NCBI GenBank assembly: GCA_963743305.1
Contig: CAVUPH010000006.1
Location: forward strand, 128,001-192,000
Source: an uncultured delta proteobacterium
Lineage (GTDB): Bacteria > Desulfobacterota > RBG-13-43-22
Direction: 5' to 3'
Length of the DNA: 64,000 nucleotides
The position numbers and the translations under genes are program-made. The notes under the pieces were generated by a model, which saw nothing but the letters and a program-made list of their open reading frames with translations, was not told the origin of the DNA and made no database searches. This document shows positions 12,813 to 63,445 of this stretch, piece after piece (position 1 is the first letter of the stretch; every line of letters starts with the position of its first letter).

Positions 12813-14051
12813 TCAGTTCAATTCTTTTTCCTGGGGAAAAATCGGCAAATAGCGGTACGACAAAGAAATCAGCAGGCCTCCGTAGGCCAGGATAGCAAAG
12901 GTGGGCGCCCATTCCTGCCAACTGGGCCAGTAGGTGACGAACCGGTCGAAAGGCATAACCGGGATGGCCAAGGTGACGATGGTCATAATAAACCGGTTAA
13001 AGACAATCCCGGCGCAGTCCAGGAGACAGGCAAAGACCAGCCAGCCGTAACTGTTTCGTCGTTTGGACAGGAGGATCCAGGCCGGAAGGATGCCCAGGAC
13101 CCCGATTTCCATCACCATCAGCCAGATCCCGTAAGGACCCTGGAACTGACTCCCGAAGGTGATCCCCCGATTGGGCAGAATGGAAAAGGCCCAGCCGAGG
13201 GTATCCAAAATCTTGAGGATCAAGTAGACCGCCAGCAGGCTGCCGGCGATCTTGCCCATCAGAGAAAGCACCTCCAGTTTGACCAGTTTCCGGCCGGTTA
13301 CCTTTTGGACAATAGCCGTGATCAGCACCGTGAAGGCCGGGCCGGAGGCGATGGCCGAGGAGATGAAGAGGAAGAAAGTCCAGGGCCAGATAAAAATCCC
13401 TTCCCGGAAGGCAAAAGGCCGGGCAAACATGACTCCGTACATTCCGCCCAAAGAACCCTGGTGGAAAAAGGAAAGAAAGGTACCGGTCCCGGCAAAAATA
13501 AACATCAGGTGGTGAAGGTTGTGGGCGAAGTAATGGGCCCCGGGGTTTTTATTGATACCCCGGTTCTCCAGAATCAAGGGCAGGTATTCGATGGCCAGGA
13601 CCCCTAGATACAGGGTGATGCAGAACATCACTTCGGTCAACATGGAATGGACGTTGGGGTGCCAGAAACCGTACCAGGATCGTAAGGGCTGGCCCACGTC
13701 CAGGGTGAGTATCAGGATGGCCCCGCTATAACAGATAAAGCCGATGATCACGGCGAAATTGATAATGGCCTTCAGTTCTTTTTTACCGATGATATAGGTC
13801 AAAAACCCGGTAAAGAAGGCCCCGGCACCTAAGGCGATTATCGCCAGGTCAAAGGTGATCCAGAGGGCGAACCCGAAATAGTCGTTCATGTTGGTCTGGT
13901 TCAACCCGAAGATCAAAACCAGAATGCCTCCAACCAACCCCCAGCCTACGACCAGGAGAAGAAAAAAGATCCAGGTCAGAAATTTTGGCAGGGAACCCCG
14001 TTCCACCCCCTCCGGGAATAAGGCATGATCAACAGGCAAGGTCTTCTCCAT
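12813..14051 (-). CDS. qrcD: menaquinone reductase membrane subunit (NrfD/PsrC family)
   Basis: LWITFDLAIIALGAGAFF, DVGQPLR, SMLTEVMFC, SFFHQGSLGG; ~10 TM. Confidence 0.93.
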   Translation of the reverse strand: MEKTLPVDHALFPEGVERGSLPKFLTWIFFLLLVVGWGLVGGILVLIFGLNQTNMNDYFGFALWITFDLAIIALGAGAFFTGFLTYIIGKKELKAIINFAVIIGFICYSGAILILTLDVGQPLRSWYGFWHPNVHSMLTEVMFCITLYLGVLAIEYLPLILENRGINKNPGAHYFAHNLHHLMFIFAGTGTFLSFFHQGSLGGMYGVMFARPFAFREGIFIWPWTFFLFISSAIASGPAFTVLITAIVQKVTGRKLVKLEVLSLMGKIAGSLLAVYLILKILDTLGWAFSILPNRGITFGSQFQGPYGIWLMVMEIGVLGILPAWILLSKRRNSYGWLVFACLLDCAGIVFNRFIMTIVTLAIPVMPFDRFVTYWPSWQEWAPTFAILAYGGLLISLSYRYLPIFPQEKELN

Positions 14052-14098
14052 TATGTTACCCCTTTTAATAGAATATCCTTAAGAAGCAATCGATTCGG

Positions 14099-14878
14099 TT
14101 ATTTATGCCCGGACGAGACCCTTTTGAGGGTCTCCCCCTCCAAATAATTGTCAATTTGCCGCTGAATCCACTCCTGAGAGGTCAGATAATACACTTTGGG
14201 TTGGCTTCCCAGTTTTTCCAGCAGGCGAAAGGCCCGGGGACTTTTGCTCAGCCTGGCCACCGCACTTTCGGGGTTTTGCAGGTTCCCGAAGGTTATGGCC
14301 TGGGTAGGGCAGGCCTCGGCGCAGGCCGTGTTATATTCACCCTCTTTCAGGTCCCGGCGCTCTTCCATAAAGGCCCGGTCTTTCGCCCGCTGATAGCGAT
14401 GATGGCAGAAAGTGCATTTATGGACCACTCCGCGCATGGCCACGGAAACGTCCGGATTCAGGTAGTTTTCCAGACCCTGAGGGAACACCGGGTCCCACCA
14501 GTGAAACAACCGGGCATGGTAGGGGCAGGCGGCCACACAGTACCGGCAACCGATGCAGCGGGGATAGATCTGGCTGACCACCCCTTGTTCATCAATCTTA
14601 GTGGCGTTGACCGGGCAGACCGAAACGCAGGGCGTATGGTTCTGGCAGTGCATACAGGGACGGGGGAAATAGGCTACCTTGGTCTTGGGAAAGGGCTTTC
14701 CGTTGTTCAAACGGTACAGCCGCATCCAGGTGCCCGTTCGCAGCTTGTCGGTCTCATCCGTTCGATAGGCGATATTATTTTCAGCCGAACAGGCGACGCC
14801 ACAAGCCCCACATCCGGTGCATCGGTCTAAGTCGATCACCATGCCATAGAGTTCTTTGCCGAGAGGAATTTCTTTCAT
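14099..14878 (-). CDS. qrcC: menaquinone reductase Fe-S subunit
   Basis: GMVIDLDRCTGCGAC, CMHC, CIGCRYC, KCTFC. Confidence 0.93.
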   Translation of the reverse strand: MKEIPLGKELYGMVIDLDRCTGCGACGVACSAENNIAYRTDETDKLRTGTWMRLYRLNNGKPFPKTKVAYFPRPCMHCQNHTPCVSVCPVNATKIDEQGVVSQIYPRCIGCRYCVAACPYHARLFHWWDPVFPQGLENYLNPDVSVAMRGVVHKCTFCHHRYQRAKDRAFMEERRDLKEGEYNTACAEACPTQAITFGNLQNPESAVARLSKSPRAFRLLEKLGSQPKVYYLTSQEWIQRQIDNYLEGETLKRVSSGHK

Positions 14879-14888
14879 GGCTACCCTC

Positions 14889-14981
14889 TAGATTTTTACA
14901 TCCATTGTTCCGAGAATTTGTCTTTAACCATGGACGTAAAAATCTAAATTAAAAGAAGTTATTTTGAAATATTTTTGGCTA
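14889..14981. repeat. Repeat family R2 (TAG-bounded hairpin element)
   Basis: TAGATTTTTACATCCATTGTT-CCGAGAATTTGTCTTT-AACCATGGACGTAAAAATCTA, then AAATATTTTTGGCTA. Confidence 0.75.
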
Positions 14982-17294
14982 AATTTTTCTAATTTTCACT
15001 TTGGTGACCCAGGAGATCGGTAACCCGCTTGCCGGGTCAATAATATTATCCAGCAGCGGATAGGGATTCGCCCCACGATTTTTCAAAGTCGGATCAAAGG
15101 CCTCGTGCCCCATTCCCAGGGGAACGAAAATGACCTGAGGCATGGCCCCTTCAAACAATTGGACCCCCACCTTAATGCTCCCTCCCGCCGATTCCAGTGT
15201 CACTCGGTCTCCCTGCTTCAACCCGAACTTCTTGGCGGTAGTCGGGTGAAACTGGGCCATCAGGTCATTGGCTTTTAGAATTTCTTCGCCCAGGTACTTG
15301 GTCATGAAAGGGGGATTGGGGAAGTATCCGTTTTGGAGCAACATCAAGGACAGCGGCACCATCAAAAGCGGGCTCTCCCCTCCGGGATAATAAGAGAAGC
15401 TCAGATCAATTTTTTCCGGTTCCTGGCGGAGGGCGGCAGGATAGAGGTCGATCTTTCCCTGTCCCCCGACCCCGGCGCCTTCCAGATGATACCAGGTCCC
15501 TTCCCGGACCAGCCCTTCCCAGAATTTATCAAAAGATTCAAAAGAGGCGGAGCCGGACTTGCCGGCTTCCGACGGCGGGCTATCGCTCAGGCGGCCCTTC
15601 TTGGTCTCGAAAACGGTTTTGGCGCTCTGCTTAACCACGGCTTCCATATTTTCGAAGCTTAAGGCCTCCTGAACCGCTCCGCCCAGACCTTTGGCCAAGG
15701 CGATCAGTACCTCGCCCGGATTTCGGTTTCCGTGAAGGGGGGGCAATACCGGCTTGGCCAGGCCATAAACCGGAAAGGGCACCCCCGGGACGCCATAGGC
15801 GTCATCCCAGCGCTCCAGGAAGGTCGGAGCCGGCAGGATCAAGTCCGCTAATTGGGTGGTTTCATCATAGAAAGAGGAAAAACTGACAATATATGGGATG
15901 CGGGCCACGGCGGCTTTGATCGCCTCATCCCCCAACCTAAAGGCCGGGTTGGCCTCGTGAAGCATCAGGAGGTTGATCGGATAAGGTTTCTGTTGGGCCG
16001 CATTGCTGAAAAATTGGATATAGTTGGGTTGGCCCGCCGGAAACTTGGAACTCCCGATGCTGTCCAGCCGAGGTTGGGCCAGCCCTTTCTCAGCTATGCC
16101 GTCCAGCGACGCCTTAGGCCAAGCGGCGGTCAGTCCACCCTCGGACTTTAAGAAAACCCCGCCGCTGCGATTCAACGCCCCGATCAGAACGTTCAAGGTA
16201 AGGATGGCCGCACCCTCAGAAAAAGGAATGGCCAGGTCCCCTTTCCCTCTCCCCATCAGGGCGACCGCTTGTTTGGCCGAGGCGAATTCCTTGGCCAGTT
16301 TTTCAATCTCCTCGGGAGGCAAGCCGGTAATCTTGGCCACCTTGTCCGGAGTATATTTTTTATCCAGCACTTCTTTCAAACCTTCCAAACCTGAAGTCCC
16401 CGCCTGGATAGCCTCCCGGTTAACCCAGCCTTTGGAAATCATGATTTGGGCCAAGCCCCAGGCCAAAGACCCCTCGGTCCCTGGTTTTACCGCCACCCAT
16501 TCATCCGCCAGGGAGGCTGTCGTGGAGGCTAAGGGTTCCACCTGGACTAATTTGGCCCTTCCCGCCGGGGGATCTTTTCTCCATTCCCGGTAAGCCTGGC
16601 TCACCCAGGTCGGAGTTCCCCAACCGTCCAACAATCCCGCGCCGAAGCTGAGGATATATTTGGCCTGGGGCAGGTCATAGGCCCAGGAGGAACGGGCCCC
16701 CTGAAGGGAGGCCGTCACCATCTCTTCCATATCTCCCAGTCGCGGGGTTCGAATATAATTAGGGGAACCGTAGCTTCTCATGAATCGGGTCATCAACAGG
16801 GAAAGGCTTCCTTGTCCGCCGCGACCATCCAGAAGGGCCGCCGTGTGGGTCTGGTTATTCTGACGTAATTCCTTTAACCATTTGGTCAAATCACCATAGG
16901 CCTCTTCCCAGGAGACCGGCAACCAATCCCCTTTCCCCCGAGGACCGAAACGCTTCATCGGACCCTTCACGCGGATCTCTTCCTGGTACAGGTACTGCAA
17001 CCCGGACAAGCCCAACGGACATAGCCCGCCTTGATTTACCGGATGGTTCGGCTGGCCTTCGATTTTAACGGCCCGCTTACTTTCGATCAGCCGGACTTTG
17101 ATGCCGCAGGCCCCCGGACAAAGGAGGCAGATAGAATTCAGATAAGAGGATTCGCCGCTCTCGGGAATGGGGGCCCAACGCTGGCTCCATTTGGCCACTT
17201 CATCCATGGGCACCCAGGGCAGGGGTGAAACAATGGTCCCCACCGCGCCCCCGACGATAAACTTCAGGAAATCTCTGCGATCAATGGTTGGCAT
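14979..17294 (-). CDS. qrcB: menaquinone reductase molybdopterin-oxidoreductase-like subunit
   Basis: Tat signal DRRDFLK, CLLCPGAC...LCP, ADLILPA; between qrcA and qrcC. Confidence 0.92.
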   Translation of the reverse strand: MPTIDRRDFLKFIVGGAVGTIVSPLPWVPMDEVAKWSQRWAPIPESGESSYLNSICLLCPGACGIKVRLIESKRAVKIEGQPNHPVNQGGLCPLGLSGLQYLYQEEIRVKGPMKRFGPRGKGDWLPVSWEEAYGDLTKWLKELRQNNQTHTAALLDGRGGQGSLSLLMTRFMRSYGSPNYIRTPRLGDMEEMVTASLQGARSSWAYDLPQAKYILSFGAGLLDGWGTPTWVSQAYREWRKDPPAGRAKLVQVEPLASTTASLADEWVAVKPGTEGSLAWGLAQIMISKGWVNREAIQAGTSGLEGLKEVLDKKYTPDKVAKITGLPPEEIEKLAKEFASAKQAVALMGRGKGDLAIPFSEGAAILTLNVLIGALNRSGGVFLKSEGGLTAAWPKASLDGIAEKGLAQPRLDSIGSSKFPAGQPNYIQFFSNAAQQKPYPINLLMLHEANPAFRLGDEAIKAAVARIPYIVSFSSFYDETTQLADLILPAPTFLERWDDAYGVPGVPFPVYGLAKPVLPPLHGNRNPGEVLIALAKGLGGAVQEALSFENMEAVVKQSAKTVFETKKGRLSDSPPSEAGKSGSASFESFDKFWEGLVREGTWYHLEGAGVGGQGKIDLYPAALRQEPEKIDLSFSYYPGGESPLLMVPLSLMLLQNGYFPNPPFMTKYLGEEILKANDLMAQFHPTTAKKFGLKQGDRVTLESAGGSIKVGVQLFEGAMPQVIFVPLGMGHEAFDPTLKNRGANPYPLLDNIIDPASGLPISWVTKVKIRKI

Positions 17295-17344
17295 TTTCCT
17301 ATTCCTCGTGTTTTACCTGAGTTAGGGTCTGTTCAGGTTCCAAT

Positions 17345-17926
17345 TTATTTATGACATACAAAACAGGCGTTGCTTTTGCCTTTCTTTTGGTGACAGGCTT
17401 CACAGGTTTCCATCATCATCACTTCAGGAGCGTAGCCTGAAATCCACTTGTATTTATATACCGGGTTTTTATCGGTTTTGCCGCCCACCATCTTGTGGCA
17501 ATCCGTGCAGTTTTGTTTGGCCATTTTGACATGAGCCACGTGGGAGAAAAAAACGTTGTCGGGCTGCTGAGAGTAGATCAACCAGGAAATATTTCTATTC
17601 TCTTTCTTCAGTTGCTCCGCCAATTTAATAAAATCGGCCTCCTCCTTGGAACTGCCCTGAGCCGACTCGTGGCATTCCAGACATTTGGCCAGAGGCGGAA
17701 TACCGGCGAAGGTGCCATCCTTCCGGAAGGAATGGCAATCCTCACACTGCGCCCCGGCACCTCCCTCCCCATGCTTGAGATGGCTGAAATGCACGGGTTG
17801 GACCTTCTTGCTCTGGATAAGTCCCGGGAAGATCAGCCAGCCTAAAATCAAGGATGCCACGACCCCGACCCAGAAAAACATCCAGGTGCCCTTGGATTTT
17901 CCCTCTTTTTCCATCTCTTTTTCCAT
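17345..17926 (-). CDS. qrcA: membrane-anchored multiheme cytochrome c
   Basis: N-terminal TM, five CxxCH, QPDNVFFSH, ends NACFVCHK. Confidence 0.93.
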   Translation of the reverse strand: MEKEMEKEGKSKGTWMFFWVGVVASLILGWLIFPGLIQSKKVQPVHFSHLKHGEGGAGAQCEDCHSFRKDGTFAGIPPLAKCLECHESAQGSSKEEADFIKLAEQLKKENRNISWLIYSQQPDNVFFSHVAHVKMAKQNCTDCHKMVGGKTDKNPVYKYKWISGYAPEVMMMETCEACHQKKGKSNACFVCHK

Positions 17927-43766: not shown

Positions 43767-43827
43767 GGTAAAACCGCTTTGCCGATCAGCGGGTCATTAT
43801 TGATGGCCCCATTTTTTATAGGCAACT

Positions 43828-43869
43828 AATAAAAAAGGGTGGATCTATAAGGATCCACCCTTTTTTATT
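43828..43869. terminator. intrinsic terminator
   Basis: AATAAAAAAGGGTGGATC-TATAAG-GATCCACCCTTTTTTATT. Confidence 0.85.
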
Positions 43870-43888
43870 AGTTGCCTTGGGAAAGGAA

Positions 43889-44173
43889 TTACTTCTTTTC
43901 CATCGGGGCTGCGGGGGCTTTCTCTTCAGCCGGCTTTTCAGCGGCCGGAGTAGCCTTCTTGACCTTCTTCTTCTTGGCCGGGGCCTTCTTCTTCTTGGCC
44001 GGGGCCTTCATTTCTCCTTCAGCCTTGGGCTCGGCAGCCGGCTTTTCAGCAGCAGCAGCGGGAGCGGCGGCGGCCGGAGCCGCTTTCTCAGCAGCCTTAT
44101 CGGCGGCGAAAGCAGCCATCGAGAAAGTCAAAGCAAAAGCCAAAACCGTCATTAAAGCGAATAACTTTTTCAT
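43889..44173 (-). CDS. small exported Ala/Lys/Pro-rich protein
   Basis: AAGGAGGTG RBS, signal peptide ending AFA, low-complexity KAPAKKKK repeats. Confidence 0.85.
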   Translation of the reverse strand: MKKLFALMTVLAFALTFSMAAFAADKAAEKAAPAAAAPAAAAEKPAAEPKAEGEMKAPAKKKKAPAKKKKVKKATPAAEKPAEEKAPAAPMEKK

Positions 44174-44257
44174 AGATTTCCACCTCCTTTCCTCTAAATT
44201 AAACTTTTTCATGAGCCGTGAAGCGCTATGAACGTTTTGTGTTTTGACCATATAGTA

Positions 44258-44273
44258 AGCAATCACTATGCCA
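44258..44273 (-). promoter_or_regulatory. sigma54 promoter
   Basis: TGGCATAGTGATTGCT on minus strand. Confidence 0.75.
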
Positions 44274-60492: not shown

Positions 60493-61662
60493 CTAGGCAA
60501 ATACCCGTTTGGCCCGCTCCAGCTTGGCCGGGATATCGATCCCGTTTACACAGGAAGCCGTACATTCCGAACAATCCAGACAGGACTTCAAGGAGGCCTG
60601 AGGGGGGATTTCCCGATAGGTATCCATGGCCAAGTCTAGACTGTCGTAGGCTTCGGCGTACATCAGGGAACGGTTGATGTCGCTGATGGCCACTCCGCGA
60701 GAACAGAATCCCTCGCAGCTTCCGCAGAACTGACAGTAATAAGGACTGATGGCCTGACCATACCTTTTCAGGATCTGTTCATCCGCTCGGGTCAGGGCCA
60801 TCCCCATGACGGCCAGATCCTCCCGGAGATGCGCGAGATCCTTCATCCCCGGGATGGCCGCCGTTATGTGGGTATCCTGCAAGGCCCACTTCAAAGCGGC
60901 CTGGTGTGGGCTGACCGGCCCCAGGGCCGAGGTCTGATACCCTCCGGCCTGGGTCTTCATGGCCACGATGCCGATCCCGGCCTGGGAGGCCCGGGCGATG
61001 GCTTGCTTGATTTCCGGGGGACTTTTAAAATTGTAGCCCACCAGGGCCACGTCGAAGAAGCGGTCCGGGTCGTCGGCCAGGGCATTGACGACTTCGGCTT
61101 GGTTGGTGTGGGTAGTCACCCCGAAAAACCGGACCTTGCCCTGCTTCCGCAATTGGACCAGGGCCTCCCGCACTTCCGGAAGGAAGGCCCGCTCTTTACT
61201 TTTGAGGCTATGGAGCTGGAGGACATCGAGGTAATCCGTCTGGAGCTCGGTAAGGCTCTCCTCCACGTCCCGAAAGATTTCTTTTTGGGTATCCGAGGTG
61301 GGTCGGGCTTTGGTGGCCAGATAGATTTTGTCTCGCCGCCCCTTGATGGCCTGGGCCACGATCCCCTCGTTCTTACCGTTCATGTAACGTCGGGCCGTAT
61401 CGATGTAGTTGATGCCCTGGTCCAGGCCGGCCCGGATGACTTCCGGCTCCGGCGTCAGCATGGCCCCGAAGCTGACCACCGTGATTTTCAGGCCGGTGCG
61501 GCCCAAGGTCCGGTAAACCGGGACGGCTTTTTCAGCCGAGGTCATCGAAACGCCCTCGGCAATTTCGTTTAATCCGGTGAGCCCCAGGGCTGCGGCGGCC
61601 CCTCCGCAAACACCCGCCTTGATAAATTGCCGACGGTTTATTTTTTTATCAATGTTTTCCAA
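60493..61662 (-). CDS. aldo/keto reductase with C-terminal Fe-S motifs and Tat-like leader
   Basis: NRRQFIK, YRTLGRTG, IDTARRY, CQFCGSCEGFC, CLDCSECTASC; TTG start after GGAGG. Confidence 0.9.
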   Translation of the reverse strand: MENIDKKINRRQFIKAGVCGGAAAALGLTGLNEIAEGVSMTSAEKAVPVYRTLGRTGLKITVVSFGAMLTPEPEVIRAGLDQGINYIDTARRYMNGKNEGIVAQAIKGRRDKIYLATKARPTSDTQKEIFRDVEESLTELQTDYLDVLQLHSLKSKERAFLPEVREALVQLRKQGKVRFFGVTTHTNQAEVVNALADDPDRFFDVALVGYNFKSPPEIKQAIARASQAGIGIVAMKTQAGGYQTSALGPVSPHQAALKWALQDTHITAAIPGMKDLAHLREDLAVMGMALTRADEQILKRYGQAISPYYCQFCGSCEGFCSRGVAISDINRSLMYAEAYDSLDLAMDTYREIPPQASLKSCLDCSECTASCVNGIDIPAKLERAKRVFA

Positions 61663-61689
61663 AATAACCTCCGCAAATGCTCTCGAGTC

Positions 61690-61732
61690 GTCATTGCGAG
61701 GAGTCACTTAGGCGTGACGACAAAGTAATCCC
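61690..61732. repeat. palindrome R3, partial
   Basis: GTCATTGCGAGGAGT...GTGACGACAAAGTAATCCC. Confidence 0.6.
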
Positions 61733-61741
61733 TATTTCAGC

Positions 61742-62266
61742 TTACTCCACCAACAACTTGGTTACTTCCCCCAGACATTTTTCCACCCATTGGTCCAGCA
61801 CCGCATTCGCGGTGGCATTGATGGGATGAGGGATCAGGACAAAAGGATAATCCGGGAAACCATGGGCCAGGGCCATGGCCTTGCCGGAGGACAGGAAGGG
61901 TTCGGTACAAATCACCGCCGTGGGTCGACCCAGCTTCTCCATGATGATGCCATCGAGCACACTGCCCGAGCTGCAGGAGCCTCAGTCCCCGACCCCGGCA
62001 ATAACCACCTGGCATTGCTCAGCCAGTATTTGGGCTTGATCGGCCGGGAGGCCGTGGGATACGGATGGCTTACGAACGTAGCGGTGACCGGCCAATCCCT
62101 CCCGGGCCAGCAATTTTTCCAGTATCCCCTTCAAGAGGTAATCGGAATTTTTTTTGCCGTTGTCAATGACCCCCAGGGTCACTCCCTTAAGTTTTTCCGG
62201 TCGCGGGGCCAGGGTAAAACTGGTTTTTATGGGTCCGTCGGTCGGATCCAGTACAATATAAGACAT
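61742..62266 (-). CDS. UGSC-family selenoprotein (in-frame UGA 61982-61984)
   Basis: Two track ORFs join: VIAGVGD-UGA-GSCSSGSVLDGIIMEKLGRPT; hairpin right after UGA. Confidence 0.88.
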
Positions 62267-62353
62267 GGGGTCCCTCACCTATTATTCCAATAGAATTTGA
62301 TTCTGACAGGTTCACAGTCGGATTTCGAATTTCGGGTTTCGAATTTTTTCTTT

Positions 62354-63445
62354 TCAGGTCGCCGGCCCCAACTGGGCCAGGGAGCGGGTTCAACCCCCGC
62401 CCGAACAGGTGCCGGCTTCAATCGGCCAGGTCACCGCCTTGGACATGTGCCTCCCGCCCCAGCCCGGGATAAAGGCCGAAAACCTCCCGGCTACTCCGCC
62501 GGCCATAATCAACAAAATATGGTTCGGGGAGGATACCGCCCTGATCATAGTGGTTTCATCCGCCGGGACTAGCGGCGCTTCAATCAGGCCGCCCCGTTTA
62601 AGATCGGCCAGGGGTCGGCAGGCTCGTTCATAAAGAAACTGCCGGACCCGATCTTTCTGCCACCCGCCCTCAATCAGCGTCTGGTAATGTTCCCGGCAGA
62701 GGACCACCACCCCTTCCGTATCCCCCAACATATTAAAGCTGCCCAGGCTGCGCATGCGGTCGGCCATGGTCAGCAAGATGTTTTCCGGTTTCAAGGCCCC
62801 GTGATTCTGAACCTGGTTGGGTCCTTCCGCCGCGAAAACCGTCACCGTGGCGCTCTCCCGGGGAAAACCCCGGGTCACTTGCAACGGCTCCCAACGGCTG
62901 TCTTCCTCTTCGGCGATACAATAGGTGTATTTTCCCGGGTTCCCCAAGGTACCTCGATCGAATTCTCTCCCCCCCAGATTAAACAGGATCAGACGGATCG
63001 CCCGGCCGATGGTGGCGTTGGCCCGATGGCCCGGCCCGAAAACATTTTGGCCGCTGTTCAATCCGATCTCCCGGATGATCGGTCCGTTGACGATCATTAA
63101 AATGGCGGTCCCGGCCGTGGTGGCCGTTACACCGTGCAAACCGAAATCGGGGTGGCTCATAGCCCGCACCGCCGCCACCACCACCGGAAAATATTCCGGG
63201 AGGCACCCGGCCATGACGGCATTGATGGCCGCCTTTTCCGCCGTGAAGACCCGGTTTCGTTCCGGAATGGATCCCAAGATTTCCGTTGACGGCAGTTGGG
63301 CCGCCGCCAGAAAAGCCCTTACTTTTTCCTCGGTCGGCGGGATGATCGGGAGGCCGTCGGTCCAGCCTCGGTCGTAAAAGTGGTCCCGGGCCTGCTCGGC
63401 ATCACTGAACTCCAGCCTGTCGGCATTTCCCAAATTGATTAACAT
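62354..63445 (-). CDS. uncharacterised UGSC-partner protein; ends at 62390, or 62354 if UGA is Sec
   Basis: GWTDGLPIIPPT, NAVMAGC, RANATIGRA, GNPGKY; tail TCSGGG-UGA-TRSLAQLGPAT. Confidence 0.8.

What the first reader, a model, noticed from the sequence alone, without database searches (positions are those of the whole stretch)
62354..63445. Hidden RNR-like CxGGxU selenocysteine tail on the UGSC partner protein: a candidate two-selenoprotein redox system
Seen: the 351-aa ORF ends EAGT-C-S-G-G-G-UGA. The next bases, ACCCGCUCC-CUGGCCC-AGUUG-GGGCCGG, form a hairpin whose loop starts about 16 nt after the UGA with G(U) at loop position 2. Read-through adds U-TRSLAQLGPAT. Known: bacterial SECIS elements are hairpins just 3' of UGA with an early loop G. 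Ribonucleotide reductases use a C-terminal CxxxxC tail (E. coli NrdA CESGAC, L. leichmannii RTPR CEGGAC) to carry electrons from thioredoxin to a buried cysteine. Inference: this protein has a Cys/Sec swinging arm, reduced by the adjacent UGSC selenoprotein, serving an internal Cys (NAVMAGC or KYTYC). That would be an enzyme system with unknown substrate that standard annotation truncates.
Basis: partly seen in the sequence, partly recalled or inferred. Interest (0 to 1): 0.85.

Follow-up and report, generated by a model that had tools for sequence, protein, structure and literature searches.

The report
Probable hidden selenocysteine tail on UGSC partner
A 351-residue enzyme-like protein of an unnamed but very large family, always found beside the UGSC selenoprotein, probably does not stop at its UGA but reads it as selenocysteine, giving a flexible Cys/Sec redox tail that annotation cuts off.

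Summary
The sequence facts are confirmed. The minus-strand ORF 62393..63445 ends ...TCSGGG-TGA. It is followed by 11 sense codons, a second TGA and a 7-bp hairpin.

Reading the first TGA as selenocysteine (Sec) is the best-supported interpretation, at about 0.65.
- The TGA aligns with the second Cys of a CxxxxC tail in 7 homologues.
- The hairpin meets the published bacterial SECIS model. Only 3.5% of UGA triplets in the window do, and 1 of 20 TGA-ended ORFs.
- TGA and hairpin recur in the only close relative with DNA (L001).
- The next gene is a UGSC selenoprotein with an in-frame TGA.

The case is not closed.
- Only two DNA sequences exist for the clade.
- L001's gene is damaged.
- 37 of 126 close relatives end at the same place without any tail Cys.
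- No sel genes lie in the window.

The protein belongs to a large family (5309 cluster representatives) with no Pfam or NCBIfam model and no PDB fold match. It has two conserved internal Cys, C81 and C176. UGSC is adjacent in about 66 of 80 loci and fused in several. trxB or trxA sometimes lies nearby.

"RNR-like" holds as an analogy, not as homology.

The parts
62393..63445 (-). Coding region (351 codons) of an enzyme-like protein of a large unnamed family. Conserved internal Cys are C81 and C176. The tail reads ...T-C347-S-G-G-G351.
   Evidence: ORF list and translation. No Pfam or NCBIfam match. 7981 relatives with E <= 1e-3 among 8000 scored. 5309 cluster representatives with E <= 1e-3. 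AF2 model with mean pLDDT 87.7, and residues 346-351 below 50. Residue conservation.
62390..62392 (-). TGA codon, candidate selenocysteine U352. Annotation reads it as the stop.
   Evidence: It aligns with the second Cys of CxxxxC in P0008, P0009, P0036, L061, L064, P0160 and P0136. TGA is also present in L001.
62357..62389 (-). Eleven sense codons (TRSLAQLGPAT) that would be translated after U352. They carry the hairpin.
   Evidence: L001 has a 9-codon counterpart, TTTLAQVGS.
62359..62383 (-). Candidate bacterial SECIS hairpin. The 7-bp upper stem is 62380..62374 paired with 62368..62362. The loop AGUUG is 62373..62369. Two outer pairs follow a 1-nt bulge.
   Evidence: Folds. Model scan gives spacing 16 nt, loop 5 nt, 7 bp, -12.5 kcal/mol. 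Controls.
62354..62356 (-). Second TGA, the real stop if U352 is inserted.
61742..62266 (-). UGSC family selenoprotein gene (stop included). Its Sec codon TGA is at 61984..61982, in the motif G-D-U-G-S-C.
   Evidence: The same gene follows the family gene in most related loci.

Best explanation
The TGA at 62392..62390 is most likely decoded as selenocysteine. The mature protein would then have 363 residues and end ...T-C347-S-G-G-G-U352-TRSLAQLGPAT. The hairpin 16 nt downstream would act as the bacterial SECIS, and the 11 extra codons exist mainly to carry it.

C347 and U352 would form a selenenylsulfide/thiol-selenol pair on a tail that the structure model leaves disordered. The body of the protein is an uncharacterised enzyme-like fold with two conserved cysteines (C81, C176) and many conserved Arg, Asp, Glu, Asn and His residues.

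Inferred mechanism: the enzyme reduces an unknown, probably anionic organic substrate and oxidises an internal cysteine pair. The C-terminal Cys/Sec arm swings in to re-reduce it. The arm is in turn reduced by the adjacent UGSC selenoprotein (U-G-S-C). UGSC is fed by thioredoxin reductase and thioredoxin in at least some organisms.

Shown here: the sequence anatomy, the Cys/UGA alignment, the SECIS-model fit and its rarity, the UGSC linkage and fusions, the occasional trxB/trxA linkage, and the conservation of C81 and C176.

Inferred only: Sec insertion, the direction of electron flow, which cysteines touch, and the substrate.
For: 1. Cys/UGA pair. In a MAFFT alignment the UGA column holds the second Cys of a CxxxxC tail in three close relatives: P0008 (CSGDVC), P0009 (CSGDIC) and P0036 (CSDGTC). 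The same holds in four distant ones: L061 and L064 (CGPDSC), P0160 (CVDGTC) and P0136 (CDDEAC).

2. Placement of the Cys forms. A quick IQ-TREE built on residues 1-340 only (65 rows; the careful search did not finish) places the three close Cys forms inside the 39-row clade whose other members end C-x-G-G-x. They are sister to the window's 8-row subclade with SH-aLRT 92.

3. Covariation with the partner. L061 and L064, the two loci with CxxxxC tails, are also the two loci whose UGSC homologue has Cys instead of Sec (CGSC, CGAC). No hairpin follows their second Cys codon, 0 of 2.

4. Two-Cys C-terminal tails recur in other clades. GVC[IL]DC appears in 12 of the 80 loci with mixed stop codons. 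Eight of 150 diverse representatives have CxxC, CxxxC or CxxxxC in the last 16 residues, plus one doubtful ninth.

5. SECIS. The hairpin meets all four constraints of the consensus bSECIS model: loop 5 nt, stem 7 bp, G then U at loop positions 2-3, spacing 16 nt, -12.5 kcal/mol. The same scan passes 3.5% of all UGA triplets in the window (66 of 1913), 1 of 20 TGA-ended ORFs, 0 of 34 TGA-ended family homologues in other loci, and 29 of 58 true UGSC Sec-UGAs.

6. L001. This Thermodesulfobacteriota MAG is the only close relative with DNA. It keeps TGA, the 16-nt spacing, the stem with two one-sided changes (C-G to U-G and G-C to G-U) and the loop AGGUG.

7. The organism decodes Sec. The next gene has an in-frame TGA at the family's Sec position.

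8. Flexibility. Tail residues 346-351 have pLDDT below 50 in an otherwise confident model.

9. Coupling to UGSC. A UGSC homologue was found in about 66 of 80 loci, mostly directly downstream on the same strand. Natural fusions occur in both orders: P0164, L083 and L085 have UGSC then family domain, and P0126 has family domain then UGSC. A UGSC/'Unknown_1' fusion is mentioned in PMC2398784 (passages read).

10. Thioredoxin link. Gene orders are trxB-trxA-family-UGSC in L081, trxB nearby in L082, and family-UGSC-trxB in L084. That is 3 of 7 annotated plasmid loci. By tblastn, trxB also lies in L052, L062 and L029, and trxA in L003, L007 and L023, out of the 80 genome loci.
Against: - Only two DNA sequences of the clade could be examined, the window and L001.
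- L001's gene has an internal gap of about 50 codons with a frame change, so it may be a pseudogene or a misassembly.
- L001's hairpin is borderline. It scores -7.2 without and -7.8 kcal/mol with flanking bases against the -7.5 cut-off, and my scan at -7.5 missed it. It is counted among the 0 of 34.
- Whole-segment folding energies are not better than shuffles.
- The 16-nt spacing sits at the lower limit of the model.
- Three close relatives that run on past this position have no Cys there: P0011, P0013 and P0038.
- 37 of 126 close-clade proteins, largely Bacillaceae-named ones, end at the same place with no Cys in the tail (xTGFT and similar). This position may therefore simply be the family's natural C-terminus.
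- TGA differs from TGC or TGT by one base. A nonsense change at a Cys codon, or a stop-loss at TGA, would also give a Cys/TGA alignment.
- TGA is an ordinary stop here, used by 20 of 61 ORFs.
- No selA, selB, selD or tRNA-Sec lies in the 64-kb window.
- Most family members have no Cys in the tail, although they have a UGSC neighbour.
Confidence: 0.65

Rival explanations
1. The TGA is the true stop. The protein ends ...TCSGGG with a single tail cysteine (or a tail of no redox role). The hairpin is an incidental or intercistronic mRNA element between the two co-transcribed genes, for example one that affects stability or processing. The extended CxxxxC relatives arose by stop-loss (TGA to TGY).
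For: - 37 of 126 close relatives end at the same place without any Cys.
- Three extended relatives lack the second Cys.
- TGA is a normal stop in this window, 20 of 61 ORFs.
- Segment folding energies are not exceptional.
- 9 of 61 ORF stops in the window are followed by some hairpin whose loop starts 16-37 nt downstream.
- L001's hairpin is marginal.
- No Sec machinery lies in the window.
Against: - A stop-loss at TGA gives Cys in only 2 of 8 sense single-base outcomes (my count from the code table). Yet Cys is found in both close extended lineages with a second Cys and in four distant CxxxxC forms.
- The hairpin satisfies the loop-G and spacing rules that only 3.5% of UGAs and 3 of 61 stops meet.
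- 0 of 34 TGA-ended homologues in other clades have such a hairpin.
- The C-x-G-G-x spacing is held in 42 of 126 relatives.
Confidence: 0.3
2. The hairpin is a transcription terminator or attenuator that separates the 351-aa gene from the UGSC gene.
For: It is a G+C-rich stem just after an ORF end.
Against: - On the coding strand it is followed by an A-rich stretch, not a U-rich one (GACCUGAAAAGAAAAAAUUCG).
- On the other strand the T run precedes the stem.
- UGSC follows the family gene at short distance in most loci and is fused to it in some. That argues for co-expression.
Confidence: 0.03
3. The gene is a decaying copy, with a nonsense mutation in a former CxxxxC tail and no function for the TGA.
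For: TGY to TGA is a single-base change. L001's copy is internally damaged.
Against: - The window ORF is intact over 351 codons and 95% identical to P0001.
- 42 of 126 cluster representatives share the same end, C-x4. That requires long-term retention.
Confidence: 0.02

Closest known systems
C-terminal CxxxxC tail of class Ia/II ribonucleotide reductases (E. coli NrdA, L. leichmannii RTPR); recalled, not tested by any search
   Same: A flexible, Gly-containing C-terminal tail with two redox residues four apart. It is thought to shuttle electrons from a thioredoxin-type protein to a buried cysteine pair. Here the corresponding elements are C347-x4-U352, a disordered tail and two conserved internal Cys.
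   Different: There is no homology: no RNR domain in Pfam, no PDB sequence hit and no fold hit (best TM 0.30). The second residue would be Sec. The proposed reductant is a dedicated selenoprotein. Most family members lack the tail cysteines.
Mammalian thioredoxin reductase C-terminal Gly-Cys-Sec-Gly arm; recalled
   Same: A Cys/Sec redox pair on a mobile C-terminal extension that carries electrons between an internal dithiol and a partner. Gene prediction cuts it off at UGA.
   Different: There the Cys and Sec are adjacent and penultimate, on a flavoprotein with a eukaryotic 3'-UTR SECIS. Here the pair is spaced by four residues, 11 residues follow, the SECIS is bacterial and lies in the reading frame, and no flavin domain was detected.
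UGSC/'Unknown_1' fusion noted in the GOS selenoproteome paper (PMC2398784; passages read)
   Same: The paper states that the UGSC-containing protein was found fused to a conserved domain of unknown function with conserved Cys. I found fusions of UGSC with this family in both orders.
   Different: I could not confirm that Unknown_1 is this family, because Figure S1 is a PDF and was not readable. The passages read say nothing of a Sec in the partner domain.
Bacterial selenoproteins with Sec near the C-terminus (SaoC 'Cys-Cys-COOH', KCU-star, UXX-star families), listed in the table of review PMC13188914 (passages read)
   Same: These are Sec a few residues from the end, found through C-terminal truncation where UGA aligns to Cys (method described in the passage).
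   Different: They are different proteins. The 351-aa protein matches no NCBIfam or Pfam model, whereas every family in the passages I read of that table carries a model accession. The motif here is CxxxxU, and the strings 'CxxxxU' and 'CxxxU' do not occur in that review.
Glycine reductase selenoprotein A with the thioredoxin system; recalled
   Same: A small selenoprotein with a Sec/Cys motif acts as a redox carrier between the thioredoxin system and a substrate-specific protein.
   Different: No homology was tested or claimed. The UGSC motif is U-x-x-C in a different family, and the substrate here is unknown.

Membership tests
Bacterial selenoprotein (UGA decoded as Sec) | The in-frame UGA aligns with Cys in homologues (Cys/Sec pair). 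| tested here: met
   The UGA column holds Cys in P0008, P0009, P0036, L061, L064, P0160 and P0136. It does not in P0011, P0013 and P0038, which run on without Cys.
Bacterial selenoprotein (UGA decoded as Sec) | A bSECIS hairpin downstream of the UGA: loop 3-9 nt, stem 4-16 bp, G in the first two loop positions, spacing 16-37 nt, MFE <= -7.5 kcal/mol (criteria from PMC13188914). | tested here: met
   Loop 5 nt (AGUUG), 7 bp, spacing 16 nt, -12.5 kcal/mol. The background pass rate is 3.5% of UGA triplets.
Bacterial selenoprotein (UGA decoded as Sec) | UGA-containing orthologues with a conserved hairpin in other organisms. | tested here: inconclusive
   Only one relative, L001, had DNA. It has TGA, the same spacing and a similar loop, but its hairpin energy is borderline and its gene is internally damaged.
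Bacterial selenoprotein (UGA decoded as Sec) | selA, selB, selC and selD present in the genome. | not testable with these tools
   None lies in the 64-kb window. The only tRNA is tRNA-His, and 60 ORFs scanned against NCBIfam gave no sel gene. Indirect support comes from the adjacent UGSC gene, which has an in-frame TGA at the Sec site.
Bacterial selenoprotein (UGA decoded as Sec) | Selenium found in the protein. | not testable with these tools
   This needs 75Se labelling or mass spectrometry.
Ribonucleotide reductase (as a family) | RNR catalytic domain by sequence or fold. | tested here: not met
   No Pfam hit at E <= 1 in any of the 34 members. No PDB sequence hit below E = 0.08. The best fold matches have TM 0.26-0.30, to class I fumarate hydratase.
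RNR-type C-terminal redox shuttle (works-like, not membership) | A mobile C-terminal tail with two redox residues, plus a conserved internal Cys pair. | tested here: inconclusive
   The tail C347-x4-U352 has pLDDT below 50. C81 is Cys in 144 of 150 and C176 in 138 of 150 representatives. The spatial proximity of C81 to C176, and the reach of the tail, could not be measured because no coordinates are returned.
UGSC family (the neighbouring gene) | Match to PF24696 / NF041046, with the U-G-S-C motif at the in-frame TGA. | tested here: met
   PF24696 at 1.1e-48 (166 bits, cut-off 25). NF041046 at 124.5 bits, half a bit under its cut-off of 125. The motif is G-D-U-G-S-C.
'Unknown_1' domain of Zhang & Gladyshev 2008 | Identity with the domain shown in their Figure S1A. 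| not testable with these tools
   The figure is a PDF supplement and is not readable here. Only the text passages were read.

The most novel reading that the evidence does not exclude
The whole close clade that ends C-x4 (42 of 126 cluster representatives), and perhaps also the one that ends C-x2 (31 of 126), would consist of unannotated selenoproteins with CxxxxU or CxxU C-terminal arms, not this gene alone. Together with UGSC they would form a two-selenoprotein, thioredoxin-fed reductase for an unknown organic substrate. This would be the first functional setting for UGSC, one of the most abundant aquatic selenoproteins, whose role has been open since 2007-2008. The body would be a Pfam-less enzyme family of thousands of members.
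Probability: 0.4. Interest if true: 0.75.

Novelty: new member of a known kind. Interest (0 to 1): 0.6.

Why it matters
UGSC is described as a selenoprotein of unknown function (PMC1976440, passage read). It is also named among the major selenoprotein families in ocean metagenomes (PMC2398784).

This work gives UGSC a constant partner: a very large enzyme-like family with no Pfam or NCBIfam model and no solved fold. It points to a thioredoxin-linked redox relay. It also indicates that in one Desulfobacterota-type clade the partner itself is probably a selenoprotein that every gene caller truncates.

If confirmed, this adds a selenoprotein family that I did not find in the passages I read of the 2026 review's table (PMC13188914). 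It also makes the function of UGSC testable with a defined two-protein system: the enzyme, UGSC, and TrxB/TrxA.

Tried and rejected
- **Cluster members.** The listing of cluster members, tried for names and organisms of clade members, answered that the database is switched off.
- **More Cys forms.** A search on the tail region of P0008 found only P0008 and P0009. A search with P0036 returned essentially the same 120 clusters, with 6 new.
- **Plasmid collection (tblastn).** 24 records matched, all below 45% identity and none of the C-x4 clade. They were useful only for annotated context.
- **Rfam on 61700..62500.** Only chance-level hits, all far below gathering scores.
- **Fold and sequence searches for function.**
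  - PDB profile search: nothing below E = 0.08.
  - Foldseek against PDB: 0 matches at E <= 0.001, and the best are class I fumarate hydratases at TM 0.26-0.30.
  - ESM Atlas: only 'hypothetical protein' clusters, plus one with UGSC on 16% of members.
  - I rejected a fumarase-like or PurM-like reading as unsupported.
- **Neighbour clustering in the 80 loci.** Beyond UGSC only weakly recurrent families appeared: SDR in 8 loci, CoA-transferase III in 6, luciferase-like in 5, MFS in 5, aldo/keto reductase in 4, TctC in 4. Greedy ORF picking in high-GC loci also produced antisense artefacts, so the counts are rough.
- **Other selenoproteins in the window.** A scan for internal-UGA ORFs found only UGSC.
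- **Not checked.** Supplement Figure S1 of PMC2398784 could not be read.
Full report
**1. Observation**

On the minus strand, the ORF 62393..63445 encodes 351 residues ending ...EAGT-C347-S-G-G-G351. The TGA is at 62392..62390. Eleven sense codons follow (62389..62357, TRSLAQLGPAT), then a second TGA at 62356..62354.

The bases after the first TGA are ACCCGCUCC, CUGGCCC, AGUUG, GGGCCGG. The last three parts form the minimum-energy hairpin: a 7-bp stem and a 5-nt loop whose first base lies 16 nt after the UGA.

The next gene on the same strand (61742..62266) is a UGSC family protein. It matches PF24696 at 1.1e-48, and NF041046 at 124.5 bits against a cut-off of 125. Its in-frame TGA is at 61984..61982, in G-D-U-G-S-C.

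**2. Is the hairpin more than chance?**

The folding energy of the whole segment is not exceptional. For 71 nt, z = -1.39 and 18 of 200 shuffles fold as well. For 53 nt, z = -0.80 and 47 of 200 do.

I then applied the published consensus for bacterial SECIS elements. I read it in the Fig. 2 legend of review PMC13188914. The constraints are a loop of 3-9 nt, a stem of 4-16 bp, a G in the first two loop positions (usually followed by G or U), 16-37 nt between the UGA and the loop, and MFE <= -7.5 kcal/mol. My script implements this with contiguous stems only.

| Set scanned | Pass |
|---|---|
| This hairpin (16 nt, 5-nt loop, 7 bp, -12.5 kcal/mol) | yes |
| All UGA triplets on both strands of the window | 66 of 1913 (3.5%) |
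| Same, at <= -12 kcal/mol | 13 of 1913 |
| TGA-ended ORFs in the window | 1 of 20 (this one) |
| ORF stops of any kind in the window | 3 of 61 |
| TGA-ended homologues in other loci | 0 of 34 |
| True Sec-UGAs of UGSC genes in the fetched loci | 29 of 58 |

The hairpin is therefore about ten to fifteen times more likely at a Sec codon than at an ordinary one. That supports the reading but does not prove it.

**3. Relatives**

The 351-aa protein matches nothing in Pfam or NCBIfam. None of the 34 aligned members has a Pfam hit shared by more than two members at E <= 1.

The family is nevertheless very large.
- 7981 of the 8000 scored candidates have E <= 1e-3 in the 90%-clustered database.
- 5309 representatives have E <= 1e-3 in the 50%-clustered library.

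The structure gives no functional lead.
- An AlphaFold2 model from the alignment is confident (mean pLDDT 87.7, pTM 0.89), except for the first four residues and the tail 346-351.
- It has no convincing PDB counterpart. Foldseek gave 0 matches at E <= 0.001, and the best are class I fumarate hydratases at TM 0.26-0.30.
- The profile search against PDB sequences gave nothing below E = 0.08.
- The ESM Atlas returned only 'hypothetical protein' clusters.

Conservation across 150 diverse representatives:

| Residue | Conserved in |
|---|---|
| C81 (NAVMAGC) | 144 |
| C176 (KYTYC) | 138 |
| R148 | 150 |
| E179 | 149 |
| N143 | 147 |
| D30 | 142 |
| C250 | 29 |

This looks like an enzyme with an internal cysteine pair and a polar, Arg-rich site.

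**4. The tail in relatives**

Among 126 close-clade cluster representatives (55-95% identity), a regular-expression count gave these classes:

| Tail class | Count |
|---|---|
| Ends C-x4 (CSGGV, CAGGT, CKGGT, CTGGG and similar) | 42 |
| Ends C-x2 (TCGT and similar) | 31 |
| Ends at the same place with no Cys (ATGFT and similar, many named from Bacillaceae) | 37 |
| Runs on as CxxxxC plus extension (P0008, P0009, P0036) | 3 |
| Other | 13 |

The 'other' class includes P0011, P0013 and P0038, which run on without a second Cys.

In a MAFFT alignment the window's UGA falls in the column of the second Cys of P0008 (CSGDVC), P0009 (CSGDIC) and P0036 (CSDGTC). The same is true of four distant forms: L061 and L064 (CGPDSC), P0160 (CVDGTC) and P0136 (CDDEAC).

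I built a quick IQ-TREE on residues 1-340 only, so that the tails could not drive it (65 rows). The careful search did not finish and support values are SH-aLRT. The tree places P0008, P0009 and P0036 inside the 39-row clade (support 97) whose other members end C-x-G-G-x. They are sister to the window's 8-row subclade (support 92).

Two-cysteine C-terminal tails also occur in other clades.
- GVC[IL]DC(D) appears in 12 of the 80 genome loci. There the stop codon is TGA, TAG or TAA, so those are real ends.
- CxxC, CxxxC or CxxxxC lies in the last 16 residues of 8 of 150 diverse representatives. A ninth, P0244, looks like an Arg-rich frame artefact.

A dithiol tail is thus a recurrent option in this family, but most members have no tail Cys.

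**5. DNA of relatives**

Their ORFs end with TGA in 36, TAG in 27 and TAA in 17, as expected for ordinary stops.

Only L001 belongs to the window's clade. It is a Thermodesulfobacteriota MAG with 75% identity.
- It reads ...GGGCTGGV-TGA-TTTLAQVGS-TAA.
- The hairpin UGGCCC/AGGUG/GGGUCG sits at the same 16-nt spacing.
- The two stem differences from the window are one-sided changes that keep pairing (C-G to U-G, G-C to G-U).
- The nine bases between the UGA and the stem are only 4 of 9 identical.

The weaknesses of L001 must be stated.
- Its hairpin scores -7.2 kcal/mol without and -7.8 with flanking bases. It straddles the cut-off, and my scan missed it.
- Its gene has an internal gap of about 50 codons with a frame change.

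L061 and L064, the two loci with CxxxxC tails, use UGC for the second Cys and have no hairpin after it. They are also the two loci whose UGSC homologue carries Cys instead of Sec (CGSC, CGAC).

**6. The partner and the context**

A phmmer search with the window's UGSC protein, run over TGA-read-through ORFs of the 80 loci, gave 70 hit ORFs. A UGSC homologue lies in about 66 loci, mostly directly downstream on the same strand. Nearly all carry TGA at the U position.

Natural fusions exist in both orders.
- UGSC then family domain: P0164 (542 aa), the Sporomusa plasmid protein in L083 and the Vibrio plasmid protein in L085.
- Family domain then UGSC: P0126, whose predicted protein stops at UGSC profile position 92 of 172, just before the U.

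[quoted passage not shown] I could not open its Figure S1 to confirm that this is the same domain.

Of 7 annotated plasmid loci examined, 6 have UGSC adjacent or fused, and 3 have trxB next to the pair.
- Arthrobacter: trxB-trxA-family-UGSC.
- Variovorax: trxB nearby.
- Roseovarius: family-UGSC-trxB.

Two further plasmid records carried no annotation at the site.

By tblastn over the 80 genome loci, trxB also lies in L052, L062 and L029, and trxA in L003, L007 and L023. None lies in the window.

Other neighbours vary: SDR, CoA-transferase III, luciferase-like oxidoreductase, MFS/TctC/TRAP transporters, acyl-CoA dehydrogenase and enoyl-CoA hydratase. This suggests organic-acid or acyl-CoA metabolism without naming a substrate.

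In the window and in L001 an aldo/keto reductase with a twin-arginine signal follows UGSC. The window also carries qrcABCD (12813..17926). Together with the relatives' names, this points to a sulfate-reducing Desulfobacterota-type organism.

**7. Interpretation**

The standard criteria for a new bacterial selenoprotein are a Cys/Sec pair, a bSECIS-model hairpin and a UGA-containing orthologue elsewhere (review PMC13188914, passages read). The first two are met. The third is met by one imperfect sequence.

The organism evidently decodes Sec, because the adjacent gene requires it.

I therefore favour Sec at U352 with confidence about 0.65. This gives a C347-x4-U352 pair on a disordered tail.

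The relay I propose is: internal pair C81/C176, then the tail, then UGSC, then the thioredoxin system. It is an inference from anatomy, fusions and neighbourhood. No step of it was tested.

The main rival (0.3) is that the TGA is simply the stop. Its evidence:
- 37 of 126 close relatives end at the same place with no Cys.
- Three extended relatives lack the second Cys.
- TGA is one base from TGY, so nonsense or stop-loss events would mimic a Cys/Sec pair.
- No sel genes are visible in the window.

**8. Comparison with known systems**

The likeness to the CxxxxC tail of ribonucleotide reductases, and to the Cys-Sec arm of mammalian thioredoxin reductase, is functional analogy recalled from general knowledge. 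There is no homology.

Bacterial selenoproteins with Sec near the C-terminus are known (SaoC, KCU-star and UXX-star families in the table of PMC13188914). Each family in the passages I read carries a Pfam, NCBIfam, TIGR or cd model, and this protein matches no Pfam or NCBIfam model. The strings 'CxxxxU' and 'CxxxU' do not occur in that review.

Full-text searches for 'UGSC' with 'selenoprotein' (9 papers) and for 'UGSC' alone (17 papers, of which 9 concern selenoproteins) turned up no title or abstract about a selenoprotein partner of UGSC. I read passages only of PMC2398784, PMC13188914, PMC1976440 and PMC9312934. Subscription journals and unreadable supplements may hold more.

**9. Verdict**

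This is a probable new selenoprotein family, or more exactly the Sec form of an uncharacterised family. It belongs to the known kind 'redox Cys/Sec selenoproteins missed by annotation'. Its added value is that it ties the long-unexplained UGSC protein to a defined enzyme partner and, in some genomes, to thioredoxin reductase.

Noticed in passing
L001:2895-3795: The only close relative with DNA has its family gene in two frames, with about 50 codons missing between them (query residues about 196-246). This is either a pseudogene or a MAG assembly error. Its tail, TGA and UGSC gene are intact.
   Followed up: partly
P0126 (protein id; no window coordinates): This is a family-domain-then-UGSC fusion whose predicted protein ends at UGSC profile position 92 of 172, just before the U. 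It is probably a fused selenoprotein truncated by gene calling.
   Followed up: partly
window 60493-61707 (-): An aldo/keto reductase with a twin-arginine signal (RRQFIK) and a Cys-rich C-terminal part lies directly after UGSC. An aldo/keto reductase also follows UGSC in L001 (4390-5535), and the ORF cluster covers 4 loci. Whether it belongs to the module is unknown.
   Followed up: partly
window 62267-62353 (-): The 124-nt spacer between the first TGA and the UGSC start is unusually long for this gene pair. It contains an A-rich run and repeated TTCGAAA-like words, which are partly conserved in L001.
   Followed up: no
window about 43820-43878 (-), downstream of ORF 43889-44266: A perfect 26-bp inverted repeat with a 6-nt loop (-42.5 kcal/mol), flanked by A and T runs. 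It looks like a strong, possibly bidirectional terminator.
   Followed up: no
window 12813-17926 (-): The qrcABCD menaquinone reductase operon (NCBIfam equivalogs; QrcB at 436.8 bits is just under its cut-off of 440). It points to a sulfate-reducing Desulfobacterota-type genome.
   Followed up: no
window 61742-62266 (-): The UGSC protein scores 124.5 bits against NF041046, half a bit under the curated cut-off of 125 (with U read as C). Automatic naming might therefore miss it.
   Followed up: no
P0125, P0133, P0135, P0137, P0144, P0174 (protein ids): Proteins of about 710-740 aa with two or three matched stretches, apparently tandem duplications of the family domain.
   Followed up: no
L081:7015-7830; P0139, P0190, P0229, P0266: Some UGSC or family proteins carry an extra C-terminal segment with a CxxC motif followed by [LV]-x-P (for example ACSDCVMP, ACAKCLLP). 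This may be another redox module replacing the short tail.
   Followed up: no
L086, L088 and hits H9-H11, H15-H17 (plasmid collection): The family, and in Natrinema the UGSC neighbour too, occurs on haloarchaeal megaplasmids. The module is therefore not confined to bacteria.
   Followed up: partly
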